A stretch of 28,795 bases of DNA from an uncultured Clostridia bacterium (GTDB taxonomy: Bacteria; Aerophobota; Aerophobia; Aerophobales; AE-B3A): NCBI GenBank assembly GCA_964471775.1, contig CAYYHL010000002.1, forward strand, positions 1 to 28,795, given 5' to 3'. Of the stretch, positions 5,081 through 28,338 are shown in pieces (positions within the stretch are counted from its first letter, which is position 1; each line of letters opens with the position of its first letter). The translations under genes and the position numbers were made by a program. Under the pieces are notes generated by a model that was not told where the DNA came from, ran no database searches, and saw only the letters and a list, made by a program, of their open reading frames with translations.

Positions 5081-5647
5081 ATGAGTCTGGGGAGAAGCAT
5101 TCGGCGCCGAAGAATGGAATTGGGTTTGAGGGGAATGGACCTGGCACGGACAAGTGGTCTGAGTTCGAGCTTTTTGAGCCAGATAGAAAAGGATAGAACG
5201 AGTCCTTCCGTGAGCACATTGAAGAAAATCGCTGAGGCACTTAATACATCTGTTGCCTCGTTTTTCGAATCAGCCTTTTCTGATGAAGAACAGGGAGAAG
5301 AACTTCAACATCAGTCACCTGTTGTTCGTGAAAGCGAACGCAAGGTCCTCTCCCTTGGTGAAGGAGTCAACTTTTTCCTTCTCAATCAAAATCTAAACGA
5401 GGGAGTCAAACTCATACTCAATATCCTGAGCCCGGGAGCAACGACATCTAAAGAACTGTACAGCCACCAGGGAGAAGAAGCCGGGTTAGTGTTGGAGGGA
5501 GAATTAGAAATTCAATTGGGGAATAGGAAGTATCACTTACAAAGTGGTGATAGCATTAGTTTCAAATCCACGATCCCTCATAGAAAGACAAACACAGGGC
5601 AATCTAAGTCGATTTCCGTGTGGGGGAACACCATGGTACCATTTTGA
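5081..5647 (+). CDS. XRE-family transcriptional regulator with C-terminal cupin sensor domain
   Basis: N-terminal HTH (LARTSGLSSSFLSQIEKDRTSPSVSTLKKIAEAL); cupin motifs HQGEEAGLVLEG and GDSISFKSTIPHR. Confidence 0.95.
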   Translation: MSLGRSIRRRRMELGLRGMDLARTSGLSSSFLSQIEKDRTSPSVSTLKKIAEALNTSVASFFESAFSDEEQGEELQHQSPVVRESERKVLSLGEGVNFFLLNQNLNEGVKLILNILSPGATTSKELYSHQGEEAGLVLEGELEIQLGNRKYHLQSGDSISFKSTIPHRKTNTGQSKSISVWGNTMVPF

Positions 5648-5941
5648 AGATGAGGATGGGTATTCCAAGACAATACTCAAGCCAGACTGGAAAAAGGCGG
5701 TGGTGTGAGGCAAAAGTGGCTGAGAAATGGGCTATCAAGGACCATAAGGAAAAGACAGGAGATCTTGTCTTCTTGCTAGATCCGTGATAACACAGAAAGG
5801 GGGTGATGCACAAAGGGGAGAGAAGTCGACTGGCTTTCAAGCGAGAGAAGGCCCAGGAGAGAAGAGAAGTCAAAATGACCGACTATTGTTCCCTAAGCCG
5901 ATCGGTAGTGATATGAACAAGACAATCATGAGGAGGACAAA

Positions 5942-7342
5942 ATGAAACGGAGGATGAGAATAGGCCTAGCCAGTCTGTGTTTGGCAGTTCTGATGCTTGT
6001 AGCGTTCACAGCTTCTGGCTGGGCTGTTGAGTATATTGATGGAACCTGGCCACACCTGCGGGCTGGCAAACCTTTTGCGGGAACAACGATTGTGGTTTCC
6101 ACAATGGAGGGATGGACTTGCATTGCGCCGGCAGTAGAGCGAACTGGCCAATTCGAGGAACTGACTGGCATCAAAGTCGAGTGGTTCCAGCTCCCGGGGA
6201 GTGAGCTTTATGCGAAGCAAATCATCGAGCTGAGCGCTCATACAGGGTATGCGGATGTTGTTCAGCAGCCCGGGATATTCATGCTCCCGTGTTTTCCCTA
6301 CTTGGAACCCCTTGATAGCTACATCACGGAAGGATGGGGAAGCACCGCCCAGTTCGAGGACGAGATGTGGGAGCTTCAGAAGCAGGTAAAGGGACCTTCT
6401 GGTCAGTATGCTATGGTGCAGTTCCATGCTAACGCTCAGGTTACATACTACAGAAAAGAGCTCTTTGAGGATCCTTCCGAAAAAGCTGCATTCCGCGAGC
6501 AATATGGCTACGACCTCAAAGTCCCCGAGACACTCCAACAGCTAAAGGATGTTGCAACGTTCTTCACGCGACCGCCTGACATGTATGGGTTCGTCATGAA
6601 CCTGGGTATGGACCAAGGTTATACTGCTCAGAACGACCTGTACCTGGAGACCGGGAGAGACTGGGTGGAAAAAGTTGACGGTGGCTATCGCTGCACGTAT
6701 GCCAGCGGAGAAGGCCGTGAGGAGCAGATAATGCTCGCTCAATGGCTGCAGGATGCCATATACAAGGACAAGTACATGGCCCCCGACTCTGCTACATTGA
6801 CAACAGGGCCCGTTTCCGAGTACTTCTTCGGGGGTCACGCAGCAATGGCCTGGGGTTGGCTCTCTGACTTCTGGGGATATATGCAGACTCCAGAGATCAA
6901 GAACAAAGTCGGTGAGATTGGGACATTTCGTCTTCCCCTGCCCGTGCCTATCCGCGGCGGTGGGCATGCATCCTATTGGGGTGTCGGCATCAACGGGGAT
7001 AGCAGACACAAAGATGCGGCATGGGAATTCATAAAATGGCTGATGCAGGAAGACATCCAGTTGCCAATGGCCAAAGATGGTGGGCAATTGCCTCCCTACA
7101 AGAAACTTGCCTACTACACGTCCGTCGATCCGGGGGGAATCAATCCGAGGACACTTTACGACAAGTACCTTGAGGCCAGACATCCCTATCTCGTGCCTCT
7201 CCTTGGGCTGGGACCATTCACACAAGCCTCGGATCTCCACAACTTGTTGACTGCAAATAAGATTACGGGAGAGGAGTTTACTGATCGGGCAGCGAAGGCT
7301 ACAGAGGACGCTTTGGACAGAGCAGGACTGCTCGCAAAGTGA
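5942..7342 (+). CDS. ABC transporter substrate-binding protein, CUT1 (carbohydrate uptake 1) type
   Basis: Signal peptide; YYRKELFE, PETLQQLKD, FFGGHAAMAWGW, SYWGVGINGDSRHKDAAWEFIKWL; 466 aa; GAGGAGG RBS. Confidence 0.92.
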   Translation: MKRRMRIGLASLCLAVLMLVAFTASGWAVEYIDGTWPHLRAGKPFAGTTIVVSTMEGWTCIAPAVERTGQFEELTGIKVEWFQLPGSELYAKQIIELSAHTGYADVVQQPGIFMLPCFPYLEPLDSYITEGWGSTAQFEDEMWELQKQVKGPSGQYAMVQFHANAQVTYYRKELFEDPSEKAAFREQYGYDLKVPETLQQLKDVATFFTRPPDMYGFVMNLGMDQGYTAQNDLYLETGRDWVEKVDGGYRCTYASGEGREEQIMLAQWLQDAIYKDKYMAPDSATLTTGPVSEYFFGGHAAMAWGWLSDFWGYMQTPEIKNKVGEIGTFRLPLPVPIRGGGHASYWGVGINGDSRHKDAAWEFIKWLMQEDIQLPMAKDGGQLPPYKKLAYYTSVDPGGINPRTLYDKYLEARHPYLVPLLGLGPFTQASDLHNLLTANKITGEEFTDRAAKATEDALDRAGLLAK

Positions 7343-8253
7343 GTGAGAATCAAGTAGGGACTGCTGCGAGAGAATCAGTCCTGAAAAGGGTGGGGCTACT
7401 CTTATGGGTAGTCCCACCACTTGTTTTCTTCGCAGTGTTCCTCGGCTATCCGCTGGGAATGCTTGTTTACACAAGCCTGAGGAATAAGAATATTCCTCTG
7501 ATGATCGACAACTTCGCCGGACTTGCGAACTATGCGAGGCTCTTTAGCTCGTGGAGCTTCTACGCGGCAGTTCTTCGGACCCTGGCATACATAGGAGTGT
7601 GTGTGGGGGTAAGCCTCGTCGGGGGGCTTTTTCTTGCCGTATTTAACGCATCTATAGAGCGCCACATATCACGTGTATTCTCAAGAGTTCTCCACATAAT
7701 CATCATACTGCCATTGTTGCTGATGCCTGCTGCTGCCGCGGTCATGTGGGCTTTCGCCCTTACCGAGCAATACGGATGGGTCAATTACTTGCTCTCATTT
7801 GTGGGCATTAGAGCCCGGCCGTGGCTGGCGACTTACTCTGCGTTCTATTGGGTGATGCTTGCAGATATCTGGTCCTGGACACCGTATGTGTATCTGATCC
7901 TGCTAGCTGGAATTCAGGGGATCCCTGAAGAACCCTTGGAGGCTGCAAGAATTGACGGTGCTTCCCGGTGGCAGTCATTCTTCCTTGTCACACTTCCACT
8001 TCTGAAACGAGTGTTGCTGATTGCCATAGTTCTTAAGACAATTGACACCTCGAAAGCTTTCGACTACCTGTGGATAATGACAAGAGGCGGACCCGGCGAG
8101 GCATCCACAACGCTCAACGTGCATCTTTTCAAGACTGCATTCCGAATGTGGGATACCGGAGGAGGTGCTGCGATTGGTGTGTGTATTTTGTGTCTTGTAT
8201 TGGGCATCGTTCTTCTCTTGTTCAAGGTATCACGACTCAGAAAGGTAGATTGA
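7339..8253 (+). CDS. carbohydrate ABC transporter permease (MalF/UgpA-like)
   Basis: Multiple TM helices; EAA motif EEPLEAARIDGASRWQSFFLVTLPLL; GTGA overlap with the binding-protein stop. Confidence 0.95.
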   Translation: MSENQVGTAARESVLKRVGLLLWVVPPLVFFAVFLGYPLGMLVYTSLRNKNIPLMIDNFAGLANYARLFSSWSFYAAVLRTLAYIGVCVGVSLVGGLFLAVFNASIERHISRVFSRVLHIIIILPLLLMPAAAAVMWAFALTEQYGWVNYLLSFVGIRARPWLATYSAFYWVMLADIWSWTPYVYLILLAGIQGIPEEPLEAARIDGASRWQSFFLVTLPLLKRVLLIAIVLKTIDTSKAFDYLWIMTRGGPGEASTTLNVHLFKTAFRMWDTGGGAAIGVCILCLVLGIVLLLFKVSRLRKVD

Positions 8254-9113
8254 TGAAGTTGCCGTCGTCCAAGCTTACTATGAAAGTGCTCCTGGTGGTT
8301 ATTGCTTGTGTGGTAGTGATGTGGTGTCTTTTCCCGATCGCGTGGTTCGGTTTGGTTTCCTTCACCATACCAGGACATATTCCCGAGGGCTTGGGCATTC
8401 CCGAGGTCCTCAGTTTCGACTCCTACCGGTCAATACTAAACCTCGGTGAGGTTAGCGTTGCCATGTCCCGCTTGTCTGTGGTTGCGGAGATGCGCAATTC
8501 CCTCATAGTTGGCACCATGACCGTGGCGCTGTGCTTACTCCTGGCAATTGGACCAAGCTATATCTTGTCTCGATTTTCGGCTCGCTACCGAGAACTGGGG
8601 GCGATTTTTGGCACATTTCTGGTTGTGCGAACCATACCGCCGGTGACAATTATAATCAGCCTTTTCATAATTCTTAACAAGTATCGACTCATGGATACGT
8701 ATTGGGGATTAGTGCTTATTGAGACGGTATTCCTGTTGCCGATGTCGGTATGGTTACTATCGAGCTTCTTTGACCTAGTTCCTCGAGAACTGGAAGAACA
8801 GGCTTTCACAGACGGCGCGTCGCGATTTGGTACTGTATTCCGCGTTGTCCTACCTCTGGCTGCCCCTGGGATAGCTGTCACCGGATGTCTCGTGTTCCTT
8901 TTCAGTTGGATTGAGTACCTTTTGCCCCTTATCATTACAAGAATAAACACAAAGACGCTTCCTCTCGCCATCGCTGGTTTCTTGGGTGAACACCAGACCT
9001 TCTTTAACGAAATGGGGGCAGCATCTCTTCTGTCGATGATTCCTCTTGCCATTTTCTTTCTAGTGGCTGGAAGGTATATGGTGAGGGGGCTCACGATGGG
9101 AGCCTTCAAGTAG
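8253..9113 (+). CDS. carbohydrate ABC transporter permease (MalG/UgpE-like)
   Basis: EAA motif ELEEQAFTDGASRFGTVFRVVLPLAAPG. Start moved from 8070 to ATG 8253 (TGATG coupling; MKLPSSK). Confidence 0.95.
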   Translation: MKLPSSKLTMKVLLVVIACVVVMWCLFPIAWFGLVSFTIPGHIPEGLGIPEVLSFDSYRSILNLGEVSVAMSRLSVVAEMRNSLIVGTMTVALCLLLAIGPSYILSRFSARYRELGAIFGTFLVVRTIPPVTIIISLFIILNKYRLMDTYWGLVLIETVFLLPMSVWLLSSFFDLVPRELEEQAFTDGASRFGTVFRVVLPLAAPGIAVTGCLVFLFSWIEYLLPLIITRINTKTLPLAIAGFLGEHQTFFNEMGAASLLSMIPLAIFFLVAGRYMVRGLTMGAFK

Positions 9114-9339
9114 AAAGGAGAAAAGGGCTCTTTCAGCACGAGTGGTCGCAGTGTGCGGGGCAAGACGCCTGTGGATAGGACAACTGCCCTATACGAGAAG
9201 TCGGCAGGCTCGGGTGTCTACCGTACGAATACTCGTCGGTGCGTGTATCGCTGGCTGTGTCCGAGCGGTACCTAGCAGTGCATGTTGATAGCAATAATCA
9301 CGGGGCCTGGAAGTGTTCCGGTGGGGTGAGAGGAGTGAA

Positions 9340-10299
9340 ATGAACGTATCCAAACAGGTAATGACCAACATGCTCAGAAGAATGTACACGATAAGAATGT
9401 TCGAGGGCAAAGCTAAGGAACTGTATGCCAAAGGATTGATTACAGGGGCTCTCCATTGCTACAGCGGAGAGGAAGCTATTGCGGTTGGGGCTTGCGCCGT
9501 CATTCAGCCCCAAGACTACGTGGTGAGCACTCATCGAGGTCACGGCCATTGTATAGCCAAGGGTGCGGATATCAAGAGAATGATGGCCGAGCTGTTGGGA
9601 AGAGAGAGCGGCTATTGCAGGGGAAGAGGTGGATCCATGCACTTGACAGATCCGCGGGTAGGAATGCTCACAGCCTGTGGTATTGTGGGCGGAGGGATTC
9701 CAATATCTTTGGGCGTGGCCTTCTCCTCTCAATATCAGGAAAACGGCCGAGTGACATTGTGTTTCTTTGGAGATGGTGCTACCAATCAAGGTACTTTTCA
9801 CGAATCTTTGAATATAGCCTCCCTATGGAAGTTACCGGTGGTTTTCATCTGTGAGAATAACGGCTATGCCATCAGTGTCCCCATAAGTCGTTCTCTCTCC
9901 GTGAAGAATGTCTCAGACAGAGCTATCTCTTATGCAATGCCGGGGAAATCGGTAGACGGAAACGATATCATTGCTGTGTATGAAGTTGTGGATGACGCTG
10001 TGAGAAGGGCGAGAGATCAGGAGGGGCCTACTCTCATCGAGGCCGTTACCTTTCGCCTGGAGCGTCACGCTATGCTTGATATGGAAACACGAACCAGAGA
10101 AGAAATGGACAAGTGCAGGAGGTTAGATCCGATTTCGCGCTTTGAGCGAAAACTCATGCTGGAAAAAGCTATGAACCAAGAAGAGGTAGCACGGATTACG
10201 AAGAAGGTAGAACAAGAGGTGGATGAAGCGGCCAAGTTCGCCCAGAAAGGCTCTTTTCCGGATCCAAAGAGTACCATGGATTACCTCTACTGTGATTGA
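9340..10299 (+). CDS. ThDP-dependent 2-oxoacid/acetoin dehydrogenase E1 component, alpha subunit (PdhA/AcoA-like)
   Basis: GALHCYSGEEA, STHRGHGH, GRGGSMH, ThDP motif FFGDGATNQG...ENN. Start moved to ATG 9340 after GAGGAG. Confidence 0.95.
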   Translation: MNVSKQVMTNMLRRMYTIRMFEGKAKELYAKGLITGALHCYSGEEAIAVGACAVIQPQDYVVSTHRGHGHCIAKGADIKRMMAELLGRESGYCRGRGGSMHLTDPRVGMLTACGIVGGGIPISLGVAFSSQYQENGRVTLCFFGDGATNQGTFHESLNIASLWKLPVVFICENNGYAISVPISRSLSVKNVSDRAISYAMPGKSVDGNDIIAVYEVVDDAVRRARDQEGPTLIEAVTFRLERHAMLDMETRTREEMDKCRRLDPISRFERKLMLEKAMNQEEVARITKKVEQEVDEAAKFAQKGSFPDPKSTMDYLYCD

Positions 10300-10330
10300 G
10301 AGTGCGAATTGACCAAGAAACGAGGATAAA

Positions 10331-11302
10331 GTGAGAGAAATCAGTTATCGTCAGGCTCTAAATGAAGCTATGCAAGAGGAAATGGAAAGAGACGCCTCTG
10401 TGTTCTACATAGGGGAGGACGTGGGAGCCTACGGTGGTGTGCGCCAGATAACAAAAGGCCTTCAGGACAGATTTGGGGAAAAAAGAGTCAAGGATACCCC
10501 AATATCGGAGGCAGCTATTGTGGGGTTGGGAACTGGAGCTGCCATCATGGGTCTGCGTCCTATCGTTGAGATTATGTCAGTCGATTTCGCCACATTGGCC
10601 ATGGATCAGATATGCAATCAAGCAGCCAAACTAAGATATATGAGCGGAGGGGTTCTAGCAGTACCCCTGGTGGTAAGGACGGAGGGCGGATCAGGAAGTG
10701 GAGAGGCAGCCCAACATTGCCAGAGTCTGGAAGCCTGGTTTGTGCACACCCCGGGGTTAAAGGTAGTAATTCCTTCGACTCCGTATGATGCCAAGGGATT
10801 ATTCAAGACCTCAGTTAGGGATAACAATCCGGTGATATTCATTGGGCACAAACTTCTCTACCCACGAACTGGACCTGTGCCAGAAGGGGAATACACTGTT
10901 CCTTTTGGTCAGGCAAAGGTGGTGAGGGAGGGCAAAGACATCACGGTGGTGGCGACGTCTCTAATGGTTCACAGGGCTCTTGAGGCCGCCCGAGTTCTAG
11001 AACAAGAGGGGATAAGCTTGGACATTGTCGACCCTCGAACTTTAGTTCCCTTTGACTCCGAGACCATCCTCAATTCTGTCAAGAGAACTGGCCACCTGGC
11101 GATTGTGCACGAAGCGTGCCTCAGAGGAGGTATAGGCGGAGATATCGCTCGTCAGATGATGAAGGATGGGTTTGATTATCTTGATGGTCCCATCGAGGTT
11201 GTAGCCGGAAAAGACATTCCTATACCCTATGAGAGGAGTATGGAAGAGTCCGCGGTGCCCCAAGTGAGGGATATAGTGGATGTGACGAGACAAATGCTCT
11301 GA
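10331..11302 (+). CDS. ThDP-dependent dehydrogenase E1 component, beta subunit (PdhB/AcoB-like)
   Basis: GEDVGAYGG, DTPISEAAIVG, AQHCQSLEAW, DPRTLVPFD, VHEA. Confidence 0.95.
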   Translation: MREISYRQALNEAMQEEMERDASVFYIGEDVGAYGGVRQITKGLQDRFGEKRVKDTPISEAAIVGLGTGAAIMGLRPIVEIMSVDFATLAMDQICNQAAKLRYMSGGVLAVPLVVRTEGGSGSGEAAQHCQSLEAWFVHTPGLKVVIPSTPYDAKGLFKTSVRDNNPVIFIGHKLLYPRTGPVPEGEYTVPFGQAKVVREGKDITVVATSLMVHRALEAARVLEQEGISLDIVDPRTLVPFDSETILNSVKRTGHLAIVHEACLRGGIGGDIARQMMKDGFDYLDGPIEVVAGKDIPIPYERSMEESAVPQVRDIVDVTRQML

Positions 11303-12170: not shown

Positions 12171-13562
12171 GTGAAGCCAAAAGTTGGGTTGCTAACCTTC
12201 GCCGAGCAAAGAGAGGAATTCTACGTCAAGCGCAAGCACATAGTGGAGGAGGAATCAAGGAACGTAATAGACGCTTTGAGGGGCAGATTTGAATGTGTAT
12301 CGCCAAACCTCATACGGTCAAAAAATGAGCTCGTTTCCGCCATTGAGAAGGTCCGCGAAGAAAGCATAGACTGTCTTGTTGTATCACTCCCGGTCTGGAG
12401 CGCCCCCAATCTTCCCGTCATGGGTGTCAGACTTCTCGAACTTCCCACCATACTGTACAGCAATAATCGGCTTGATTCGTCTAGCCAGGTGGCAATACTT
12501 GCCACTGGTGGAGCACTCGATCAGATAGGCTTCCCCCACCAGCGAGTTGTTGGATCTATTGACGATGCGCAGACACTAGGAGCTATTGATGCATTCTGCA
12601 CAGCGGCGAGCGCTATGAACCGGCTCAAGGGGACAACCTATGGGTGCTTTGGTGGAAGGAGTCTTGGTATCTGCACCGCAACAGCAGATCTTGCGCAATG
12701 GCAAAGTCTCTTCGGCATAGACATTGAACATATTGATCAGATGGAAATCGTGAGGAGAGCAGGAAGTGTGCAAGAAAAGGAGATTCAACAACACATGGAG
12801 TGGATAGAGAAGAACTTCGGCGCAATAGAGTATGATGGCACTTTCCTCACTCCTGAGAAGTTGCGTTCACAGATTCGTGATTACCTTGCCACCAAGAGAA
12901 TCGCCGAAGAGATGGGTCTTGATTTCATAGGCATTAAGTGCCAAACCGAGATGAGCGATCACCACGTACTTCAGTGCTTGAACCAAATGCTGCTCAATGA
13001 TCCCTACGATGCAGAAGGGCCGAAAGAACCCGTCGTATCCAGCTGTGAGGCTGATCATGATGCAGCTCTTTCCATGCAAATTCTGAAGTTCATGTCAGGA
13101 GGAAGCCCCACCTTGTTCTTGGACATAAGACACGTTGCAGAATCGCAGATCATCGGTGCCAATTGTGGTTCTATGCCAAGTTGGTTTGCCAACTACTCTA
13201 AGAACCCTTCACACAATACGAAGGAAGTGCACCTTATCCCCCCAGCATTTGGGAAGGCTGGGGGGTGCGCTGTGCAATTCGTTGCAGGGTCCGGCCCTGT
13301 AACCCTGGCCAGATTGTGTAGAAGAAAGGGTAACTACTGGATGGCTATCCTCAAGGGGTCAATCAATAGGAAACGACGAGAAGAACTGAAGAAAACCACC
13401 TGGGCCTTTCCCCACGCGTTTATCCAGGCCGATTTCGATCACAAAGAGTTTCTAGGCACCTATGGGTCGAATCACATCCATGGCGCACGCGGTGACTGCG
13501 TGAATGAACTGGTTCAGTTCTGCAAGCTACTGTCATTGGACTACATAGTCTATTCACGGTAA
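12171..13562 (+). CDS. L-fucose/L-arabinose isomerase-like aldose-ketose isomerase
   Basis: FIGIKCQTEM, metal-binding CEADHDAALSM, VTLARL, C-terminal YGSNHIHG; 463 aa, shorter than canonical FucI. Confidence 0.85.
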   Translation: MKPKVGLLTFAEQREEFYVKRKHIVEEESRNVIDALRGRFECVSPNLIRSKNELVSAIEKVREESIDCLVVSLPVWSAPNLPVMGVRLLELPTILYSNNRLDSSSQVAILATGGALDQIGFPHQRVVGSIDDAQTLGAIDAFCTAASAMNRLKGTTYGCFGGRSLGICTATADLAQWQSLFGIDIEHIDQMEIVRRAGSVQEKEIQQHMEWIEKNFGAIEYDGTFLTPEKLRSQIRDYLATKRIAEEMGLDFIGIKCQTEMSDHHVLQCLNQMLLNDPYDAEGPKEPVVSSCEADHDAALSMQILKFMSGGSPTLFLDIRHVAESQIIGANCGSMPSWFANYSKNPSHNTKEVHLIPPAFGKAGGCAVQFVAGSGPVTLARLCRRKGNYWMAILKGSINRKRREELKKTTWAFPHAFIQADFDHKEFLGTYGSNHIHGARGDCVNELVQFCKLLSLDYIVYSR

Positions 13563-13655: not shown

Positions 13656-14885
13656 GTGAAGTACGGAAGAAATTACATGCCGGACAAATGGTGCGTCAGC
13701 GAGTTCTGTTTCAATGAGGAAGTGCGAAAAGCCATGAGACTCCCAAGCAAATTCCACATACGGGACTCTACCATACGTGAGGGAGATGAACAGCCAGGAT
13801 GCTATATGTCTCCTGACGACAAATTGAAAGTTGCTGAAAAGGTCTATGAAATAGGAATCAAGGAAATCGATGTTGGATTCGTGGGGGCTGTGGATGAACA
13901 CTACAGGACAGCGCAGCTGATCAAGAAACAAATTCCCCAGCTGGAAACCTCAGCAATCATCAAGACATGGGTTCCCACTTGGAAGGATGAGCTCAATAGA
14001 GCTATAGATGCAGGAGTTGATAGGGTTGAACCCTGGAATCATCCCATCATAAACCATGCCTCAGATGAACAGGTCGCAGAGTTAGGCCACACCAGGGAGG
14101 AGCTGATCCCTCGGATTGTGGAAGTGATACAGTGTGCGAAAGGGCAAGGGGTGAAAGTGTCCTACATGCAGTGTGACGCCATGAGGAGTAGCTGGGATTT
14201 CTTGGAGTCAATCCTTTCTGCAGTTGAGAGAGCGGGCGTCGACCGATTGAGTGTAGCCGAGGATGGCTATGCTTCCCCTCCTGCAGTAAGGTTCTTGATG
14301 GATAAGCTCACGGAATTACTAAGGGTACCCATACTTTGGCACAGCCATAATGATTTTGGCCTTTCTGTCGCCAATGTACTGGCAGCCGTCGAGCGTGGGG
14401 CTCAAGCTGCAGATCTCATCATTAACGGCATGGGGGATAAAGCCGGAATAACATCTTTGGAAGAAGTGGTTGTGTCACTGGAATGTATGTACGGAGTTGA
14501 CACGGGAGTGAAGCTGGAAAAGCTCTATGGGCTCTCCAAGTTTGTTGAGGAACTCACCGGCATTCGATGCCAACCTCACAAAGCGATAGTTGGCGAGAAT
14601 GCGTTCCTTCATGAATCAGAGCTGCATGCCTATTGCATTATCACCGGAATCTGGGAGGCAATGGAAGGGTTTCGTGCCGAACTCGTCGGCAACAAAAGAC
14701 GGGTTGTTTTTGGAGATACAACCTTGCACGGCGAGGCTGCCCGAGCAAGACTCAGGGTCCTAGGACTGGAATATACGGATGAGGATGTCAAGAAGATTCT
14801 CGACGAAGTCCGCAAGGTCCTGCCCAAGAAACACACTATCTCGCTTGAAGAATTCGACCAGATCGCGAAGAAGGTGGTAGCTTAG
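13656..14885 (+). CDS. DRE-TIM metallolyase, homocitrate / 2-isopropylmalate / Re-citrate synthase-like, divergent; no LeuA regulatory domain
   Basis: RDSTIREGDEQPG, WHSHNDFGLSVAN, NGMGDKAG, PHKAIVGENAFLHES. Start moved to GTG 13656 after AAGGAG. Confidence 0.85.
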   Translation: MKYGRNYMPDKWCVSEFCFNEEVRKAMRLPSKFHIRDSTIREGDEQPGCYMSPDDKLKVAEKVYEIGIKEIDVGFVGAVDEHYRTAQLIKKQIPQLETSAIIKTWVPTWKDELNRAIDAGVDRVEPWNHPIINHASDEQVAELGHTREELIPRIVEVIQCAKGQGVKVSYMQCDAMRSSWDFLESILSAVERAGVDRLSVAEDGYASPPAVRFLMDKLTELLRVPILWHSHNDFGLSVANVLAAVERGAQAADLIINGMGDKAGITSLEEVVVSLECMYGVDTGVKLEKLYGLSKFVEELTGIRCQPHKAIVGENAFLHESELHAYCIITGIWEAMEGFRAELVGNKRRVVFGDTTLHGEAARARLRVLGLEYTDEDVKKILDEVRKVLPKKHTISLEEFDQIAKKVVA

Positions 14886-15029: not shown

Positions 15030-16187
15030 ATGCGAAAGATAGATGTCGGTGTTATAGGATGCGGAAGCATAGCGGAAATCGCTCATTTTCCTTCGATCAA
15101 GAAACTTCCTGAAACTGAACTTGTAGCCGTGTGTGATACGGACGAGCCTAGAGCGCAAGAGATGGCAAAAAAATGGGAAGCCCGAACCTACTTCGCTGAC
15201 TATGACAGGATGCTCAATGACACGGACCTTGATGCCGTCGTCATTGCGACTCCGAATTCTCTTCACTACCAGCATGCCATCGCAGCTGCTGGGGCTGGGG
15301 CACATCTCTTGGTGGAGAAGCCTCTTGCCATCACCAACAAACAGGCTTGGGGTATCGTGGAAGCGTACAAAAAAGCAGGAAAGAAGCTGATGGTAGGCTG
15401 TGACAGAAGGTTCTGGCTGCAAAATGAATATGCGAAGCAGTTGATTACGGAGGGAGTGATTGGTGAGCCCGTAATGGGATTTGCGTGCCAATATCAACAC
15501 TTCTTCTACTACCAGGAAAAATTGGCAAGAACTGACTTCAGACTGAAGCCAAACCTGGCCGGTGCAGCAGCTATTCTGGATCTCGGTGCTCACGCCATTG
15601 ACCTTATTACGTGGCTCATGGGAAGCGAGGTAAAGAGTGTCACGGGCATTGCAAAACGTTTGGTGATACCGGAAGAATATACCCCATTGGATGACACTGT
15701 TTGGATTCTTATGGAGCACAAGAACGGTTCCTACAGTTGTGTCACGTGCAATCGATTCTCACCGGTGGTGGTCCAGGCCACCGGTGTTCATGGCAGCCAG
15801 GGAACGATACAGACAAGTTCTGATGCAACCAACCCATTCCAAATGGCACCTTTGGCAGTCTATACAAATAGGGACTACAACGCGGATGAACTACCGGACA
15901 TTATCAGAGACTACCGCTACCCGCAGACATGGTGGGCTGAGGATTTCGTGAGCCAGCCTGTCGGGAAACGCTGGGTTCCGATATATCCTCCGAGAGAATC
16001 AAACTATGAAAGGATGTGGAAGCATTTTGTCAAATGCATTGTTGAAGATACGGAACCACGAGTAACAGGTGAGGATGGAGCACGAGCATTAGAGGTGATG
16101 TGCGGGACTTTCAAATCAATGAAGACAAGGGCATGGGTTGATCTTCCTCTTGAGGAAGAAGTGTTGCCACCACACTATGGTGGATGA
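15030..16187 (+). CDS. Gfo/Idh/MocA family NAD(P)-dependent oxidoreductase
   Basis: VGVIGCGSIA, VIATPNSLH, LVEKPLA, ILDLGAHAID. Confidence 0.95.
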   Translation: MRKIDVGVIGCGSIAEIAHFPSIKKLPETELVAVCDTDEPRAQEMAKKWEARTYFADYDRMLNDTDLDAVVIATPNSLHYQHAIAAAGAGAHLLVEKPLAITNKQAWGIVEAYKKAGKKLMVGCDRRFWLQNEYAKQLITEGVIGEPVMGFACQYQHFFYYQEKLARTDFRLKPNLAGAAAILDLGAHAIDLITWLMGSEVKSVTGIAKRLVIPEEYTPLDDTVWILMEHKNGSYSCVTCNRFSPVVVQATGVHGSQGTIQTSSDATNPFQMAPLAVYTNRDYNADELPDIIRDYRYPQTWWAEDFVSQPVGKRWVPIYPPRESNYERMWKHFVKCIVEDTEPRVTGEDGARALEVMCGTFKSMKTRAWVDLPLEEEVLPPHYGG

Positions 16188-16213
16188 GGGAAGAGAATAC
16201 GGGGGAGAGGACA

Positions 16214-17125
16214 ATGAGTGAAAACAACCGCCACAAGCTGGGGCTGGAACTGAAGAAAAAAGCCTACAAACTCCGGATAACGGAACTTGAGATGATGAGA
16301 GATGCTGAAACAAGTGGACACTACGGCGGGTCTATGTCAGTCATGGACATTCTCACGGTCCTCTATTTCGGCGTCATGCGGCTGGACCCGGCAAATCCAG
16401 ACTGGGAAGACCGGGATCGGTTCGTCTTGAGCAAAGGACACACCTGCAATGCTTTGGCAACGGTTTTGGCGGACAAGGGGTTCATCTCCGGCGAGATCCT
16501 TGCCACGTTCAATAAGCTGGACAGCCCCTTGGGACAGCACCCTGACAGAAACAAGATACGTGGATGTGACGCGAGTACGGGTTCCCTGGGTCACGGAGCT
16601 GCTCTTGCTGTCGGCATGGCTATGGCCGGGAGGGTGTTAAAGAAGGACTACAGGGTGTATACAGTGCTGAGTGACGGCGAGATGGCTGAGGGTTCCACGT
16701 GGGAAGCCATTGAGATCGCTTCCCATTTCAAGGTGGACAATGTGTGTGGAACGATTGACAGGAACGGACTTAGTCTTGATGGCCCCACTGAGGGTCCGGG
16801 GGTCCTTGGAGAACGCGGCTTCGAAGGGACAATGACCCTCGAGCCTCTCGGTAAGAAGCTGGCGCTTTTTGGCTGGCATGTCATAGAATGTGACGGGCAT
16901 GACTTCTCTCAGCTACTCGGTGCTTACGAGGAAGCCGCGAAGACCAAAGGAAAACCGACCATGATCGTAGCAAATACCGTGAAGGGCAAAGGTGTTTCAT
17001 TCATTGAGGATAGATACGAATGGCACTACGGACAATTCAGTGCTGAGCAGTACGAGTTGGCAATTGGCGAGTTGGCAGCTGTAGTGAAAAAGCTGGAGCA
17101 GGAACTGGGGCAAGAATCCGCATAA
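16214..17125 (+). CDS. split transketolase, N-terminal ThDP-binding subunit
   Basis: SGHYGGSMS, FVLSKGH, GQHPD, STGSLGHG, LSDGEMAEGSTWEA, IDRN, TVKGKG, WHYG. An alternative start at 16184 is possible. Confidence 0.93.
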   Translation: MSENNRHKLGLELKKKAYKLRITELEMMRDAETSGHYGGSMSVMDILTVLYFGVMRLDPANPDWEDRDRFVLSKGHTCNALATVLADKGFISGEILATFNKLDSPLGQHPDRNKIRGCDASTGSLGHGAALAVGMAMAGRVLKKDYRVYTVLSDGEMAEGSTWEAIEIASHFKVDNVCGTIDRNGLSLDGPTEGPGVLGERGFEGTMTLEPLGKKLALFGWHVIECDGHDFSQLLGAYEEAAKTKGKPTMIVANTVKGKGVSFIEDRYEWHYGQFSAEQYELAIGELAAVVKKLEQELGQESA

Positions 17126-17139
17126 AGGGAGGAAAACAA

Positions 17140-18129
17140 ATGGCAACAGTATCTAGTTGGACAGAGGCTGACTTAGCGGATACTCTCACTCCCAGGGATG
17201 TTTTCGGGAAGGTGTTAATTGAGCTTGCAAGAGAAAACCCAAGAATCGTTGCACTATGTGCTGATCTTATGGTTTCCACCAAACTGAAGCGTTTTGCACA
17301 GGAATTCCCGGACAGGTTCTTCGAGACCGGACTCACCGAGCAGGCTACTGTGGGGGTTTGCGCGGGAATGGCGAGTTGCGGATTAATACCGTTCTTTGCG
17401 ACCTTCGCCCCATTTGCCACCATGAGACCCTGTGAGCAGGTGAGGACCGATATCACCTACCAGAATCTCAATGCAAAAATTGTCGGGACCCACGCGGGGC
17501 TCAGTATTGGGCCGGCAGGAACAACTCATCATTCTACTGAAGACATAGCCATTACGCGTTCCATGGCTAATATGACAGTGTTGGTACCCTCAGACCTGAT
17601 TCAGACAGTAAAGGTTCTGCAAAGCGCAGCAGATTTTGAGGGTCCATGCTACATTCGGCTTGTCAGAGGAGCCGAGTCCTTGGTTAGCATTTACGAGAGC
17701 GTAGAGAATTGTCCATTTGAGATTGGAAAAGCCACCGTGATCAAAGAGGGTAGTGACCTAACCCTGATTGCTGCGGGGACACCCGTCGTGCAGGAATCGC
17801 TCGTTGCAGCCAGGGGGTTGGAAAAAGAGGGCATCCACGCACGAGTGATTGATATGGCTTCTGTAAAGCCCATTGATAGAGAGAAGATTGTGAAGGCAGC
17901 TGAAGAAACCGGGGGTATAATCACGGTGGAGGATCACAGCATCAAAGGCGGATTAGGCTCGGCAGTCGCTGAAGTGGTGGTAGAAGAGAGGCCAGTCCCC
18001 ATGAAACTGGTGGGAATTCCTGACACCTACTCGGCGCTTGGACCTTGCGAGGAACTATGGAGGAGATACGGCCTGAACAGTGACTGTCTTGCGGAAACAG
18101 TGAGGACTTTTGTCAAACGACTGGGGTAA
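17140..18129 (+). CDS. split transketolase, pyrimidine-binding plus C-terminal subunit
   Basis: FFETGLTEQ, GTTHHSTED, YIRL, KPIDRE, VEDHSIKGGLGSAVAE. Confidence 0.95.
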   Translation: MATVSSWTEADLADTLTPRDVFGKVLIELARENPRIVALCADLMVSTKLKRFAQEFPDRFFETGLTEQATVGVCAGMASCGLIPFFATFAPFATMRPCEQVRTDITYQNLNAKIVGTHAGLSIGPAGTTHHSTEDIAITRSMANMTVLVPSDLIQTVKVLQSAADFEGPCYIRLVRGAESLVSIYESVENCPFEIGKATVIKEGSDLTLIAAGTPVVQESLVAARGLEKEGIHARVIDMASVKPIDREKIVKAAEETGGIITVEDHSIKGGLGSAVAEVVVEERPVPMKLVGIPDTYSALGPCEELWRRYGLNSDCLAETVRTFVKRLG

Positions 18130-27165: not shown

Positions 27166-27441
27166 TCGCCCGTCGTAGCTGAGAGCGAGAGGAAGGTCCT
27201 CTCTCTTGGGCAGGGAGTCAAATCCATGAAGAACACGGTCTGTTTCTGTTCGGGTAAACTACCCGTACCCCATTCTGAAGGTGAATGGTTCGCTCTTCCT
27301 TCACCATTCTCTCCAGGGCTCGCTTTGCCAATCCCGCCTCATAAGTGGTGCAATATGGCTGAGAGCCCTCGGGGCACAACAAAGGAGACCACAGAATACG
27401 TCATCAAAGCTGCCATGAGGAATAGCATGGAGGCCGAGTAA
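27166..27441 (+). pseudogene. remnant of a second XRE-cupin regulator (HTH deleted, cupin decayed)
   Basis: 27166-27222 encodes SPVVAESERKVLSLGQGVK versus SPVVRESERKVLSLGEGVN at 5315-5371 (16/19 identical). The same frame continues to PHSEGEW and IPPHKWCN, which resemble cupin motifs. Confidence 0.75.
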
Positions 27442-27477
27442 GAGGCCTCGTGATAATAGTCTGAAGGAGGGCTCGAG

Positions 27478-28338
27478 ATGAGCAAAATAGGTGCGCATGT
27501 GTTCATATGGACGTCAGGATCCCTTGACGAAAAGCTGAAAAGCTTTTCCCGGGCAAAAGAAATTGGATTCGACGGCGTTGAGGTATCAATAGAAGACACG
27601 TCCATAGGGTTTGAACAGGTTAAACGAGCGCGAAAGGAACTGGAAAGAGTCGGACTAGAGTGCACGTGTGGGACGGGGTTGGGAAAAAGTGAAAACTTGA
27701 TTGATGAAGATGAGGTTGTAAGGGAGCGAGGAAAGCAGCATCTAAGAAGAGCGATTGGTATTTGCTCGGACATGGGCAGTCATATTTTGAGTGGAGTGCT
27801 CTATGGTGCTTTCCAGATGTCAAAGGGTAGAGGGAGAACTCAGGAAGAGTGGGATCTTGCTGTGACGTTACTGAGAGAGGCAGCGGAATTTGCAGAGGAT
27901 AAAGGGGTCACTCTTTGCCTCGAATTTGCTAACCGCTACGAAACCTATTTCCTGAATACTGCTGAGGATGCACTCCGCCTGGCAAGAGATATTGGTAGGA
28001 ATAATGTAAAAGTTCACTTTGATACCTACCACATGAATATCGAGGAAAAGGAGTTTTATGCCCCCATTGTCAATAGCAGGGGATACCTTGGACATCTCCA
28101 CATCTCAGAAAACGACCGAGGTATCCCGGGCACGGGACACGTGAACTGGGACCAGGTTTTTAAAGGCTTATCTGAGATTGACTACAAGGGGTGGCTCGTT
28201 ATCGAGGGATTTTACGGGTACATAAAGGAACTAGCTATCGCTACGTCAATTTGGCGCAAACTGGCAGAGGATCCTGAGGATTTTGCGGTTCAAGGGCTAA
28301 AGTTCGTCCGAGAAAAGGCAAAGGAGTATGGACTTTAG
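27478..28338 (+). CDS. D-tagatose / D-psicose 3-epimerase family ketose epimerase
   Basis: IGFDGVE, LCLEFANRYE, FDTYHMNIEE, HLHISENDRGIPGTG, VIEGF (E-D-H-E metal site). Confidence 0.93.
   Translation: MSKIGAHVFIWTSGSLDEKLKSFSRAKEIGFDGVEVSIEDTSIGFEQVKRARKELERVGLECTCGTGLGKSENLIDEDEVVRERGKQHLRRAIGICSDMGSHILSGVLYGAFQMSKGRGRTQEEWDLAVTLLREAAEFAEDKGVTLCLEFANRYETYFLNTAEDALRLARDIGRNNVKVHFDTYHMNIEEKEFYAPIVNSRGYLGHLHISENDRGIPGTGHVNWDQVFKGLSEIDYKGWLVIEGFYGYIKELAIATSIWRKLAEDPEDFAVQGLKFVREKAKEYGL

What the first reader, a model, noticed from the sequence alone, without database searches (positions are those of the whole stretch)
5081..28338. Apparently kinase-free catabolic island for an unusual sugar or sugar acid: candidate undescribed pathway
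Seen: 21 genes. They comprise one regulator, two ABC sugar importers, two ThDP enzyme pairs, an aldose-ketose isomerase, a ketose 3-epimerase, a VOC epimerase-like protein, a two-Cys isomerase, two NAD(P) dehydrogenases, a DRE-TIM enzyme, a class I aldolase and two URO-D/MtaA-like proteins. None has a sugar-kinase motif (FGGY, PfkB, ROK, GHMP) or looks like a glycosidase. Known: FucI-type isomerases and DTE-family epimerases act on unphosphorylated sugars, whereas transketolase/transaldolase routes normally need a kinase. Inference: the island may break down a non-phosphorylated, methylated, branched or sulfonated monosaccharide by isomerisation, C2/C3 cleavage and organic-acid chemistry. I do not recognise this gene combination as a described pathway.
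Basis: partly seen in the sequence, partly recalled or inferred. Interest (0 to 1): 0.8.

Follow-up and report, generated by a model that had tools for sequence, protein, structure and literature searches.

The report
Kinase-less sugar island with conserved core
A marine-sediment bacterium carries a real 23-kb sugar-uptake and breakdown island with no kinase gene; about half of it is a rare gene set that recurs in unrelated uncultured bacteria and matches no described pathway, and the rest is add-on modules typical of this genome.

Summary
The gene inventory is confirmed: 21 genes, 20 of them co-oriented, plus one spurious ORF. None has a kinase or classical glycosidase domain. A near-identical metagenome contig shows unrelated genes for 4 kb past the right end.

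The island is composite. The left block (9.3-19.3 kb) holds E1 alpha/beta, a two-Cys isomerase, a FucI-like isomerase, a homocitrate-synthase-like enzyme, a Gfo/Idh/MocA dehydrogenase, a split transketolase and an SDR.
- Its four-gene core recurs at 57-81% identity on seven other metagenome contigs.
- In a MAG labelled Actinomycetota the core sits with a transketolase, E1 alpha/beta and an aldehyde dehydrogenase, in a different order and again without a kinase.
- None of the 30 other species of the phylum has the core.

The right block (CUT2 importer, two URO-D proteins, FSA-like aldolase, VOC, epimerase) consists of modules repeated across this genome. I found no conserved link between it and the left block.

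Several enzymes have altered active sites. The best model is a phosphate-borrowing, ThDP-driven route like sulfo-TK sulfoglycolysis, acting on an unidentified, perhaps acidic or tail-modified, sugar.

Earlier notes from this scan already flagged URO-D paralogs in sugar operons on other DNA. The substrate and the chemistry remain untested.

The parts
5081..5647 (+). XRE-type HTH + cupin regulator (PuuR-like, far below cut-off)
   Evidence: Pfam HTH_3 4e-12 and Cupin_2 1e-14. NCBIfam PuuR scores 97.6 against a cut-off of 211. A promoter-like site, TTGACA-16-CATAAT, lies at 4986-5013.
5942..9113 (+). CUT1-type ABC importer: binding protein 5942-7342, permeases 7339-8253 and 8253-9113; no ATPase gene
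   Evidence: Pfam SBP_bac_1 and BPD_transp_1 x2. The ATG at 8253 overlaps the preceding stop. The binding protein is only weakly similar to trehalose/maltose-binding proteins.
9313..11302 (+). E1 alpha (likely start 9340) and E1 beta of a 2-oxoacid/acetoin dehydrogenase type; no E2 or E3 in the island
   Evidence: Pfam E1_dh 2e-89 and Transket_pyr + Transketolase_C. NCBIfam PDH E1 beta subfamily scores 411 against 321; E1 alpha scores 368 against 394. E1 alpha/beta also sit in the related G041 cluster at 51% and 58% identity. A paralogous E1 alpha/beta with an E2 lies on contig C14.
11406..12131 (+). Two-Cys isomerase/racemase of the Amdase / maleate-isomerase family (core gene)
   Evidence: Pfam Amdase 2e-40. 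Both catalytic Cys align with those of Nocardia maleate isomerase 2XEC. Orthologs at 66-68% sit next to the FucI-like gene in L001, L007, L027 and L056.
12171..13562 (+). FucI-family aldose-ketose isomerase, 463 aa (core gene)
   Evidence: Three Fucose_iso Pfam domains. hhalign to E. coli FucI gives probability 96.8%. E. coli Glu337, Asp361 and His528 align with invariant E293, D318 and H435. NCBIfam SftI scores 66 against 700, and FucI 47-54 against 775-850.
13656..14885 (+). Homocitrate/isopropylmalate-synthase-like DRE-TIM enzyme without a regulatory domain (core gene). Longest ORF starts at 13581; the likely start is GTG 13656, giving 409 aa like the orthologs.
   Evidence: Pfam HMGL-like 4e-43 and HCS_D2. 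The best solved relative is homocitrate synthase 6KTQ. The R-E-G motif, HxH and the catalytic-His motif are kept. The clade is tiny: 11 clusters at 49% identity or more among 5.8 billion proteins, then a drop to 37%.
15030..16187 (+). Gfo/Idh/MocA NAD(P) dehydrogenase (core gene)
   Evidence: Pfam. The closest solved relatives are the C-glycoside 3-oxidase DgpA and levoglucosan dehydrogenases. Orthologs at 69-75% lie in L001, L007, L027, L056 and G041.
16184..18129 (+). Split transketolase (N subunit 16184-17125, C subunit 17140-18129) with an altered substrate site
   Evidence: Pfam. The C subunit matches the Carboxydothermus split transketolase 6YAJ at E 2e-86. The equivalents of human Arg318, Ser345, His416 and Arg474 are kept. 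Human Asp424 is Ala, and T-H-Q reads T-H-H.
18538..19290 (+). Short-chain dehydrogenase/reductase following the transketolase
   Evidence: Pfam adh_short_C2 3e-65. It passes only the 'glucose 1-dehydrogenase' subfamily cut-off (234 against 215). The TK-SDR pair is duplicated on contig C3 at 71-80% identity.
19648..22487 (+). CUT2-type ABC importer: binding protein 19648-20643, permease 20713-21732, single-domain ATPase 21729-22487
   Evidence: Pfam Peripla_BP_4, BPD_transp_2 and ABC_tran. The best NCBIfam match is the rhizopine binding protein, 135 against 420. The same CUT2 + URO-D arrangement recurs on contigs C52 and C6.
22584..23729 (+). URO-D/MtaA-like protein 1 (H-x-C type)
   Evidence: Pfam URO-D 4e-30. 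NCBIfam MtaA/CmuA scores 67 against 235. It is one of 20 URO-D hits in the genome.
23893..25218 (-). URO-D/MtaA-like protein 2, convergent with protein 1
   Evidence: Pfam URO-D 3e-24. NCBIfam scores are below cut-offs.
25780..26454 (+). Divergent FSA/TalC-family class I aldolase lacking the phosphate pocket and the usual acid/base residues
   Evidence: Pfam TAL_FSA. TIGR00875 scores 137.5 against 246. Against Thermoplasma transaldolase, Lys86 and Thr110 are kept. The changes are D6N, E60Q, R135T and R169H, and Ser167 is deleted. The Asn6 pattern is shared by the only three close representatives among 1.84 billion.
26668..27162 (+). VOC/glyoxalase-fold protein (methylmalonyl-CoA-epimerase-like)
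   Evidence: Pfam Glyoxalase_4 2.5e-14. TIGR03081 scores 43.7 against 115.
27478..28338 (+). Xylose-isomerase-like TIM barrel, ketose 3-epimerase-like; last gene of the island
   Evidence: Pfam AP_endonuc_2 6e-45. D-psicose 3-epimerase scores 194 against 300, and IolO 148 against 300. The next genes in a near-identical contig are unrelated and on the other strand.
18110..18541 (+). 143-aa ORF in the TK-SDR spacer: not a gene
   Evidence: It has no Pfam or NCBIfam match. Gene callers do not call it in the near-identical contigs. Two other sediment populations and L025 lack 183 bp (18220-18404) inside it.

Best explanation
The stretch is a composite catabolic island.

Its functional heart is the left block: regulator, CUT1 importer, E1 alpha/beta, two-Cys isomerase, FucI-like isomerase, homocitrate-synthase-like enzyme, Gfo/Idh/MocA dehydrogenase, split transketolase and SDR. 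Together these encode an undescribed route for a free, unphosphorylated sugar or sugar acid.

Proposed mechanism (inferred, not shown):
1. The metal-dependent FucI-like isomerase, and/or the dehydrogenase, turns the imported compound into a ketose.
2. The split transketolase removes a two-carbon ketol. It passes the ketol to a phosphorylated acceptor such as glyceraldehyde 3-phosphate, giving xylulose 5-phosphate. Carbon then enters central metabolism without a dedicated kinase, as in sulfo-TK sulfoglycolysis.
3. The leftover aldehyde is reduced by the SDR. In the related G041 cluster an aldehyde dehydrogenase would oxidise it instead.
4. The second ThDP enzyme (E1 alpha/beta), the homocitrate-synthase-like enzyme and the two-Cys isomerase process carboxylate-bearing or 2-oxo-acid fragments.

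The altered transketolase site (loss of the Asp that reads the sugar's hydroxyl), together with core enzymes whose relatives act on carboxylates, suggests a tail-modified substrate, possibly acidic.

The right block (CUT2 importer plus URO-D pair; FSA-like plus VOC; epimerase with a decayed regulator) consists of separate accessory units typical of this genome. It may act on related sugars.
For: Shown:
- Gene content and absence of any kinase.
- No kinase in the 4 kb beyond the right end.
- The four-gene core is conserved at 57-81% identity on seven other metagenome contigs.
- G041, a MAG labelled Actinomycetota, has HCS-like (71%), split TK, aldehyde dehydrogenase, E1 alpha/beta (51%/58%), URO-D and Gfo-type dehydrogenase (69%) on one contig. 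A FucI ortholog (65%) lies on another contig. The order differs from the window.
- Non-orthologous transketolases sit beside core genes in L006 and L057.
- The FucI catalytic and metal residues are conserved.
- The transketolase keeps its anion-binding residues but lacks the Asp. The G041 enzyme also lacks it.
- The HCS-type catalytic motifs are intact, and both Cys are present in the isomerase.
- More distant relatives of the HCS-like enzyme (36-37%) sit in tricarboxylate and aconitase contexts.
- FucI-like homologs at 47-49% sit beside TRAP transporters.
- The left block is compositionally offset: GC 0.50 against 0.475, with tetranucleotide distance near or just above the genome's 95th percentile.
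- None of the 30 other species of the phylum has the HCS-like or FSA-like ortholog.
- The precedent for the kinase-free logic is PMC9594981.
Against: - No substrate, transcript or enzyme activity is known, and no RNA run was listed.
- The transketolases in G041, L057 and L006 are not orthologs of the window's (33-46% identity). The L006 enzyme keeps the canonical Asp.
- L027, with 12 kb of context, has the core without a transketolase or E1.
- Most related clusters carry a specific URO-D ortholog between the HCS-like and Gfo genes. The window lacks it.
- A homocitrate-synthase-like condensing enzyme is odd in a catabolic route, and I cannot place it or the two-Cys isomerase in a defined step.
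- The genome has 2 FGGY, 6 PfkB, 2 ROK, 4 GHMP and 1 DUF1537 kinases elsewhere and is only 79% complete, so a kinase in trans is possible.
- All related contigs are short, so their full gene sets are unknown.
Confidence: 0.45

Rival explanations
1. Mosaic only. The island is a chance juxtaposition of independent sugar and organic-acid operons in a genome rich in such paralogs. No pathway spans more than the four-gene core. The transketolase, E1 and SDR serve other substrates.
For: - The genome holds 7-8 transketolase-like paralogs, three E1 alpha/beta pairs, 20 URO-D hits and repeated CUT2+URO-D modules.
- The TK-SDR pair is duplicated at 71-80% identity on contig C3 in a different context.
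- L027 has the core without TK or E1.
- A decayed regulator lies at 27166-27441, and strains diverge after the VOC gene.
Against: - TK and E1 alpha/beta recur beside core orthologs in G041, and TK recurs in L057 and L006, in different orders and as non-orthologous copies. That is hard to explain without functional coupling.
- The genes from 9313 to 19290 are co-oriented, with gaps of at most 145 nt apart from the transketolase-SDR spacer (408 nt here, 226 nt in other strains).
- The block is collinear across sediment populations.
Confidence: 0.25
2. Conventional kinase-dependent catabolism. The island's intermediates are phosphorylated by a kinase encoded elsewhere, on an unassembled part of the genome or on another contig. 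The transketolase and the FSA-like enzyme would then act on ordinary sugar phosphates.
For: - The genome is 79% complete, in 445 contigs.
- It has many sugar kinases elsewhere.
- The transketolase retains all four phosphate-binding residues.
- Some FucI-like paralogs in relatives sit next to an FGGY kinase (L045).
Against: - No kinase lies in the island, in its flanks, in the G041 cluster, or in the analogous 20-kb island of G019.
- The FSA-like enzyme has lost its phosphate pocket.
- FucI-family isomerases act on free sugars.
- The phosphate pocket of the transketolase is equally explained by a phosphorylated acceptor.
Confidence: 0.2
3. A variant sulfoquinovose (sulfo-TK or sulfo-TAL) pathway. 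The FucI-like enzyme would isomerise sulfoquinovose, the split transketolase or FSA-like enzyme would cleave sulfofructose, and the SDR would reduce the sulfonated aldehyde.
For: - The best NCBIfam match of the isomerase is the sulfoquinovose isomerase SftI.
- The isomerase + split TK + reductase + ABC importer architecture, without a kinase, mirrors sulfo-TK.
- The transketolase anion pocket is intact.
Against: - The SftI score is 66 against a cut-off of 700.
- There is no GH31 sulfoquinovosidase. GH188 (8QC2) is not among the best 60 solved relatives of the Gfo-type protein.
- There is no RpiB-type isomerase and no sulfonate exporter.
- The FSA-like enzyme lacks the Arg residues that would bind a sulfonate.
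- The conserved core (HCS-like, two-Cys isomerase) has no role in any sulfoglycolysis.
Confidence: 0.05

Closest known systems
Sulfo-TK sulfoglycolysis (SqvD isomerase, SqwGH split transketolase, SqwI, SqwF; review PMC9594981)
   Same: A FucI-family isomerase acts on a free sugar. A split transketolase passes C2 units to glyceraldehyde 3-phosphate. A reductase handles the leftover aldehyde. An ABC importer is present and no kinase is needed.
   Different: The isomerase is not an SftI/SqvD ortholog (66 against 700 bits). The island has no sulfoquinovosidase, no RpiB-type isomerase and no sulfonate exporter. It carries extra conserved enzymes (HCS-like, two-Cys isomerase, Gfo-type dehydrogenase, E1 alpha/beta). 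The transketolase lacks the conserved Asp.
Sulfo-TAL sulfoglycolysis (SF transaldolase, e.g. BmSF-TAL, PDB 8BC3)
   Same: A small TalC/FSA-fold Schiff-base enzyme sits in a kinase-less sugar locus with a FucI-family isomerase.
   Different: The window's enzyme has lost Arg135, Ser167 and Arg169 (the anion pocket), as well as Asp6 and Glu60. It lies in the non-conserved right block.
D-apiose transketolase route (one of four apiose routes, PMC13753588; enzyme details recalled from Carter et al. 2018, not checked here)
   Same: A specialised split transketolase sits in a catabolic cluster for an unusual sugar found through its binding protein.
   Different: As I recall it, that route phosphorylates apulose with a dedicated kinase before cleavage. 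There is no kinase here, and no NCBIfam match to its enzymes.
Homocitrate / 2-isopropylmalate / citramalate synthases (DRE-TIM Claisen-condensing enzymes; PDB 6KTQ, 3RMJ)
   Same: The fold and the HCS_D2 subdomain match. The R-E-G metal/2-oxoacid motif, HxH and the catalytic-His motif are present.
   Different: All equivalog cut-offs are missed (best 291 against 517). There is no regulatory domain. GERxG reads GDKAG. It belongs to a tiny separate clade found only in sugar-type clusters.
Maleate cis-trans isomerase / arylmalonate decarboxylase family
   Same: The fold matches and both catalytic Cys of the isomerase/racemase type are present.
   Different: The arylmalonate decarboxylase model scores 132 against 225, and EutA 122 against 318. 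The protein always sits beside a sugar isomerase, and its substrate is unknown.
Acetoin / pyruvate dehydrogenase E1 alpha-beta (AcoAB, PdhAB)
   Same: A heteromeric ThDP E1 with intact domains. The beta subunit passes the PDH E1-beta subfamily cut-off.
   Different: No E2, E3 or lipoyl carrier lies in the island or in the related G041 cluster. It sits inside a sugar operon.
Glycoside / anhydrosugar C3-dehydrogenases DgpA and LgdA (Gfo/Idh/MocA)
   Same: These are the closest solved relatives of the island's dehydrogenase.
   Different: The match covers only the N-terminal half (about 108 bits). The levoglucosan dehydrogenase model scores 113 against 650. No DgpBC/LgdB-type partner lies in the conserved core.

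Membership tests
Sulfo-TK pathway | SqvD/SftI-type sulfoquinovose isomerase | tested here: not met
   The NCBIfam SftI equivalog scores 66.3 bits against a cut-off of 700.
Sulfo-TK pathway | Sulfoquinovosidase (GH31 YihQ or NAD-dependent GH188) | tested here: not met
   No glycoside hydrolase domain is present. GH188 structure 8QC2 is not among the best 60 solved relatives of the Gfo-type protein.
Sulfo-TK pathway | Split transketolase acting on sulfofructose (SqwGH) | tested here: inconclusive
   A split transketolase with an intact anion pocket is present. No SqwGH sequence was available for comparison.
Sulfo-TK pathway | RpiB/LacAB-type sulfoerythrose isomerase and a sulfonate exporter | tested here: not met
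   No such Pfam family occurs in any island protein.
Sulfo-TAL pathway | Transaldolase with an anion (sulfonate/phosphate) pocket | tested here: not met
   R135T, R169H and deletion of Ser167, in Thermoplasma transaldolase numbering.
FucI-family aldose-ketose isomerases | Three Fucose_iso domains and the Mn/catalytic residues Glu337, Asp361 and His528 (E. coli numbering) | tested here: met
   Pfam. hhalign gives probability 96.8%, with E293, D318 and H435 aligned and invariant among 11 orthologs.
L-fucose isomerase proper (FucI) | Equivalog-level similarity and a length of about 590 aa | tested here: not met
   TIGR01089 scores 46.8 against 850, and PRK10991 scores 54 against 775. The protein is 463 aa.
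Transketolase | ThDP-binding, pyrimidine-binding and C-terminal domains, and the phosphate-binding Arg/Ser/His/Arg | tested here: met
   Pfam. The alignment to human transketolase shows the equivalents of R318, S345, H416 and R474.
Transketolase | Conserved Asp that reads the substrate hydroxyl (human Asp424; I take it to correspond to yeast Asp477, from memory) in the G-x-D-G-x-T-H-Q motif | tested here: not met
   The motif reads G-P-A-G-T-T-H-H. The Asp is also lost in paralogs C3 and C66 and in the G041 cluster enzyme. It is kept in other paralogs and in L006.
Fructose-6-phosphate aldolase / TalC (TIGR00875) | Schiff-base Lys | tested here: met
   Lys aligned with Lys86 of Thermoplasma transaldolase; Thr110 is also kept.
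Fructose-6-phosphate aldolase / TalC (TIGR00875) | Curated score cut-off, catalytic Asp6 with Glu60 (or Gln59 with Tyr131), and phosphate-binding Arg | tested here: not met
   The score is 137.5 against 245.95. D6N and E60Q are present, Phe132 is kept, and R135T and R169H are present.
Homocitrate / isopropylmalate synthase | DRE-TIM metal ligands (R-E/D-G, HxH) and the catalytic His of subdomain II | tested here: met
   Alignment to 6KTQ and 3RMJ.
Homocitrate / isopropylmalate synthase | Equivalog or subfamily score | tested here: not met
   The best score is 291 against 517 (PRK00915.1-2). nifV scores 213 against 463.
Maleate isomerase / two-base racemases (Amdase family) | Two catalytic Cys | tested here: met
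   Both Cys align with those of 2XEC.
Arylmalonate decarboxylase | Gly in place of the first Cys, and an equivalog score | tested here: not met
   The first Cys is present. The score is 132 against 225.
2-oxoacid / acetoin dehydrogenase complex | E2 (lipoyl acyltransferase) and E3 encoded with E1 | tested here: not met
   There is none in the island and none in the G041 cluster. An E2 lies with a paralogous E1 on contig C14.
Corrinoid-dependent methyltransferase system (MtaA-type) | MtaA/CmuA family score and an adjacent corrinoid protein | tested here: not met
   Scores are 67 and 57 against 235. The three small B12-binding proteins of the genome lie on other contigs, which carry no URO-D match.
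D-apiose transketolase route | Dedicated kinase before the transketolase step (recalled from Carter et al. 2018) | tested here: not met
   No kinase domain is present in the island.

The most novel reading that the evidence does not exclude
The conserved block encodes a previously undescribed, kinase-independent way of dismantling a free sugar or sugar acid with two different ThDP enzymes. An Asp-less split transketolase and a stand-alone E1 alpha/beta cut off C2 units, and phosphate enters only through the acceptor. A homocitrate-synthase-like enzyme, a two-Cys isomerase and (in most relatives) a non-zinc URO-D-fold protein carry out new chemistry on the remaining carboxylate fragment.
Probability: 0.2. 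Interest if true: 0.85.

Novelty: new variant of a known kind. Interest (0 to 1): 0.6.

Why it matters
If the model holds, it extends the 'borrowed phosphate' logic beyond sulfoquinovose, the only documented case I found (PMC9594981). Transketolase-based catabolism without a kinase would then apply to another class of sugars. It would also assign first functions to several rare enzyme clades: an HCS-like enzyme seen only in sugar clusters, an Asp-less split transketolase, an E1 alpha/beta without a complex, and a phosphate-pocket-free FSA-like aldolase. The hosts are uncultured bacteria found in marine sediment metagenomes from at least eight studies, so the unknown substrate may be a relevant carbon pool in sediments. 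The enzymes would also interest biocatalysis, because ThDP lyases and aldolases that accept unphosphorylated substrates are sought after.

Tried and rejected
- Rfam scan of the window: no match.
- Promoter and terminator scans: counts no higher than in shuffled sequence, so operon limits could not be set.
- Pattern scans of genome and metagenome collections with single proteins (FucI-like, FSA-like): nothing found. Alignments were needed instead.
I reached its right end through an identical URO-D protein.
- 143-aa ORF at 18110-18541: rejected as a gene. It has no family match, no similarity to the 143-aa ORF beside the paralogous SDR on C3, and 183 bp inside it are missing in other strains.
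- GH188 or other NAD-dependent glycosidase reading of the Gfo-type protein: not supported.
- Sulfo-sugar reading: disfavoured.
- Corrinoid partner for the URO-D proteins: none nearby.
- Shared operator search: the 9-mer CAAGACAAT occurs three times, only upstream of the two binding-protein genes (0 of 100 shuffles reach three). The pattern was chosen after looking at the data, so this is only a hint.
- RNA evidence: no RNA run was listed.
- Two-Cys isomerase in G041: not found, probably because of an assembly gap between two contigs.
- Literature searches for this gene combination and for URO-D proteins in sugar loci: no description found.
- I could not assign a defined step to the HCS-like enzyme, the two-Cys isomerase or E1 alpha/beta. 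The ideas I considered were uronate-type acids, 6-deoxyhexoses cut from both ends, tetruloses and methyl-inositols. None could be told apart with these tools.

Full report
**What is there.**
The window is an entire 28.8-kb contig of a 79%-complete metagenome-assembled genome (445 contigs, 2.26 Mb). A relative in the same order carries a protein that NCBI names 'Candidatus Aerophobetes bacterium'. Marine and other sediment metagenomes from at least eight studies hold part of the stretch searched (11400-19300).

- a cupin-HTH regulator;
- a CUT1 importer without an ATPase;
- E1 alpha/beta;
- an Amdase-family protein;
- a 463-aa FucI-family isomerase;
- an HMGL-like/HCS_D2 enzyme;
- a Gfo/Idh/MocA dehydrogenase;
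- a split transketolase;
- an SDR;
- a CUT2 importer with a single-domain ATPase;
- two convergent URO-D proteins;
- a TAL_FSA protein;
- a VOC protein;
- a xylose-isomerase-like TIM barrel.

No NCBIfam equivalog cut-off is reached by any of them. Rfam finds nothing. A 22nd ORF (18110-18541) is not a gene. It has no family match, it is not called in near-identical contigs, and other populations lack 183 bp inside it.

**Is it kinase-free?**
No island protein carries a kinase domain. Genome-wide family scans give 2 FGGY, 6 PfkB, 2 ROK, 4 GHMP and 1 DUF1537 hits, and none for Dak1. All lie on other contigs.

A JGI contig about 97% identical at protein level extends 4 kb beyond the window's right end. 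It shows a PdaC/DUF3298 protein, a beta-lactamase-family protein and a phosphatidylserine decarboxylase on the opposite strand. The island therefore ends at the epimerase-like gene.

To the left lie a weak transposase remnant (4581-4859), small ORFs, and an unrelated molybdoenzyme/glycosyltransferase group. A kinase acting in trans still cannot be excluded.

**Is it one unit?**
Homolog searches show that the FucI-like and HCS-like proteins belong to small clades. About 11 clusters lie at 60% identity or more for the FucI-like protein, and about 11 at 49% or more for the HCS-like protein, among 5.8 billion proteins. The HCS-like clade then drops to 37%.

Context look-ups reveal a conserved four-gene core of HCS-like, Gfo-type dehydrogenase, two-Cys isomerase and FucI-like genes:
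- The core occurs at 57-81% identity on contigs L001, L007, L027 and L056.
- Partial versions occur on L053-L055 and L057.
- It is usually LacI-regulated and next to CUT2 transporter genes.

The most informative relative is a MAG labelled uncultured Actinomycetota (G041). One contig carries, in this order:
1. HCS-like (71%);
2. split transketolase;
3. aldehyde dehydrogenase;
4. E1 alpha (51%);
5. E1 beta (58%);
6. URO-D;
7. Gfo-type dehydrogenase (69%, cut by the contig end).

A second G041 contig starts inside a FucI ortholog (65%) and ends in a transposase. L057 also has HCS-like followed by a split transketolase. L006 has the FucI ortholog (62%) followed by a fused transketolase.

These transketolases are only 33-46% identical to the window's, so they are not orthologs. 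Repeated recruitment of a transketolase, and once of E1 alpha/beta, to the same core in different orders argues for functional coupling. No kinase is seen in any of these contigs, although all are short.

All 30 other species representatives of the phylum lack orthologs of the HCS-like and FSA-like proteins. The 5-20 kb part of the window is compositionally offset from the genome: GC is 0.50 against 0.475 +/- 0.019, and tetranucleotide distance is near or just above the 95th percentile. The 20-28 kb part is typical. Together this suggests that the left block was acquired horizontally.

**The right block.**
The CUT2 importer plus URO-D arrangement recurs on contigs C52 and C6. The genome has 20 URO-D hits in 2.26 Mb. 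The three small corrinoid proteins lie on contigs that carry no URO-D match.

The specific URO-D ortholog found in most related core clusters (73% identical between L001 and G041) lacks the H-x-C motif. It has no close counterpart in this genome.

After the VOC gene the strains diverge. One carries the start of an HTH gene where the window has only a remnant.

I found no conserved link between the right block and the core. A same-order relative (G019) has an analogous but non-orthologous kinase-less island. It comprises a GntR regulator, a split transketolase, a Gfo-type dehydrogenase, an aminotransferase, a FucI-like isomerase, an M20 hydrolase, URO-D, a CUT1 importer, a second URO-D and an AP_endonuc_2 protein. 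The isomerase + transketolase + URO-D design is therefore a lineage habit.

**Active sites.**
- *FucI-like isomerase.* E. coli Glu337, Asp361 and His528 align with invariant E293, D318 and H435. The enzyme is therefore likely a working metal-dependent aldose-ketose isomerase.
- *Transketolase C subunit.* It matches the characterised Carboxydothermus split enzyme at E 2e-86. It keeps the four phosphate-binding residues. It has Ala in place of human Asp424, and T-H-H in place of T-H-Q. I take human Asp424 to correspond to yeast Asp477, which reads the substrate hydroxyl; that equivalence is from memory. Paralogs C3 and C66 and the G041 enzyme also lack the Asp. Other paralogs and L006 keep it.
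- *FSA-like protein.* It keeps the Schiff-base Lys and Thr110. It has D6N, E60Q, R135T and R169H, and it lacks Ser167. Its only three close representatives among 1.84 billion share the Asn. It is therefore a maintained variant and not a decayed copy.
- *DRE-TIM enzyme.* It aligns without a gap to homocitrate synthase: REGDEQPG against REGEQTPG. HxH and the catalytic-His motif are intact.
- *Amdase-family protein.* It has both Cys of the isomerase/racemase type.
- *Gfo-type dehydrogenase.* Its closest solved relatives are the sugar C3-oxidisers DgpA and levoglucosan dehydrogenase.

**Interpretation.**
Published kinase-free transketolase and transaldolase routes exist. In sulfo-TK and sulfo-TAL sulfoglycolysis, a FucI-family isomerase makes the ketose. 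A split transketolase or a transaldolase then transfers the fragment to glyceraldehyde 3-phosphate (PMC9594981). The left block has the same logic and is best read as working like sulfo-TK.

It fails the membership tests, however. The SftI score is 66 against 700. There is no sulfoquinovosidase, no RpiB-type isomerase and no exporter. It also contains conserved enzymes with no counterpart in those routes.

Two or three of the conserved core proteins have relatives that act on carboxylates: the HCS-like enzyme, the two-Cys isomerase, and possibly the non-zinc URO-D. More distant relatives of the HCS-like enzyme sit in tricarboxylate, aconitase and PrpD contexts. FucI-like homologs at 47-49% sit beside TRAP transporters. 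I therefore infer an acidic or otherwise tail-modified sugar, but I cannot name it or place every enzyme in a step.

**Verdict.**
The 21-gene island as a single pathway is not supported, and the kinase-free principle has a precedent. Everything mechanistic is inference from sequence.

Noticed in passing
whole genome G000 (e.g. C14:4398-12166, C52:3633-4793, C6:15671-16834): The genome has 20 URO-D family hits over the Pfam cut-off in 2.26 Mb. Many sit directly after sugar ABC transporter genes. Contig C14 has four, together with E1 alpha/beta-E2, a tungsten-type aldehyde oxidoreductase and an OMPdecase/HUMPS-like gene.
   Followed up: partly
G000 contig C3:5300-28455 (L032/L033): A second large sugar island carries a 77-80% identical copy of the split transketolase and a 71% copy of the SDR. 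It also holds aldehyde:ferredoxin oxidoreductase, two Fe-ADHs, an aldehyde dehydrogenase, an OYE-type flavoenzyme, a thiolase, a 3-hydroxyacyl-CoA dehydrogenase and a CUT1 importer with two binding proteins. The same-genus genome G001 has a transketolase C-subunit copy at about 80% identity.
   Followed up: partly
window 18220-18404: A 183-bp segment in the transketolase-SDR spacer is present in this assembly. It is absent from contigs of two other sediment populations and from the JGI contig. It creates the false 143-aa ORF.
   Followed up: yes
window 27163-27477; L031:14982-15170: The remnant of a second XRE-cupin regulator lies after the VOC gene. Another strain's contig has an HTH gene start at this position, and the sequences diverge from 27169 on.
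   Followed up: partly
window 5666-5674, 5918-5926, 19295-19303 (minus strand): The 9-mer CAAGACAAT occurs three times in the window, only in the two regions upstream of the two binding-protein genes (0.41 expected). A 12-mer, CTGAGAAATGGG, is also shared in inverted orientation. This may be a common operator, but the pattern was picked after looking at the data.
   Followed up: partly
window 2800-4860: About 2 kb has only short ORFs. One is a DUF5654 protein (3600-3833, minus strand). Another is a weak DUF772 transposase remnant (4581-4859), just left of the island.
   Followed up: partly
L001:1977-3176, L051:989-2182, L056:810-1997: A URO-D-fold protein is conserved at 73% between the HCS-like and Gfo genes of most related clusters. 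It has D-S-D where the window's URO-D proteins have H-x-C, so it is unlikely to be a zinc methyltransferase. It has no close counterpart in the window's genome.
   Followed up: partly
L041 (G019:C5:5203-19739): A same-order relative has an analogous kinase-less operon. It comprises a GntR regulator, a split transketolase, a Gfo-type dehydrogenase, a class-III aminotransferase, a FucI-like isomerase, an M20 hydrolase, URO-D, a CUT1 importer, a second URO-D and a TIM-barrel epimerase-like protein. This suggests an amino-sugar version of the same design.
   Followed up: partly
L027:9367-12273: A glycyl-radical enzyme (PFL-like) and its activase lie 1.5 kb downstream of one orthologous core cluster.
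   Followed up: no
window 1163-2205 (minus strand): A molybdopterin oxidoreductase (Oxidored_molyb) is followed by an 87-aa protein with weak cytochrome-b561 similarity, next to a family-2 glycosyltransferase. These are unrelated to the island.
   Followed up: no
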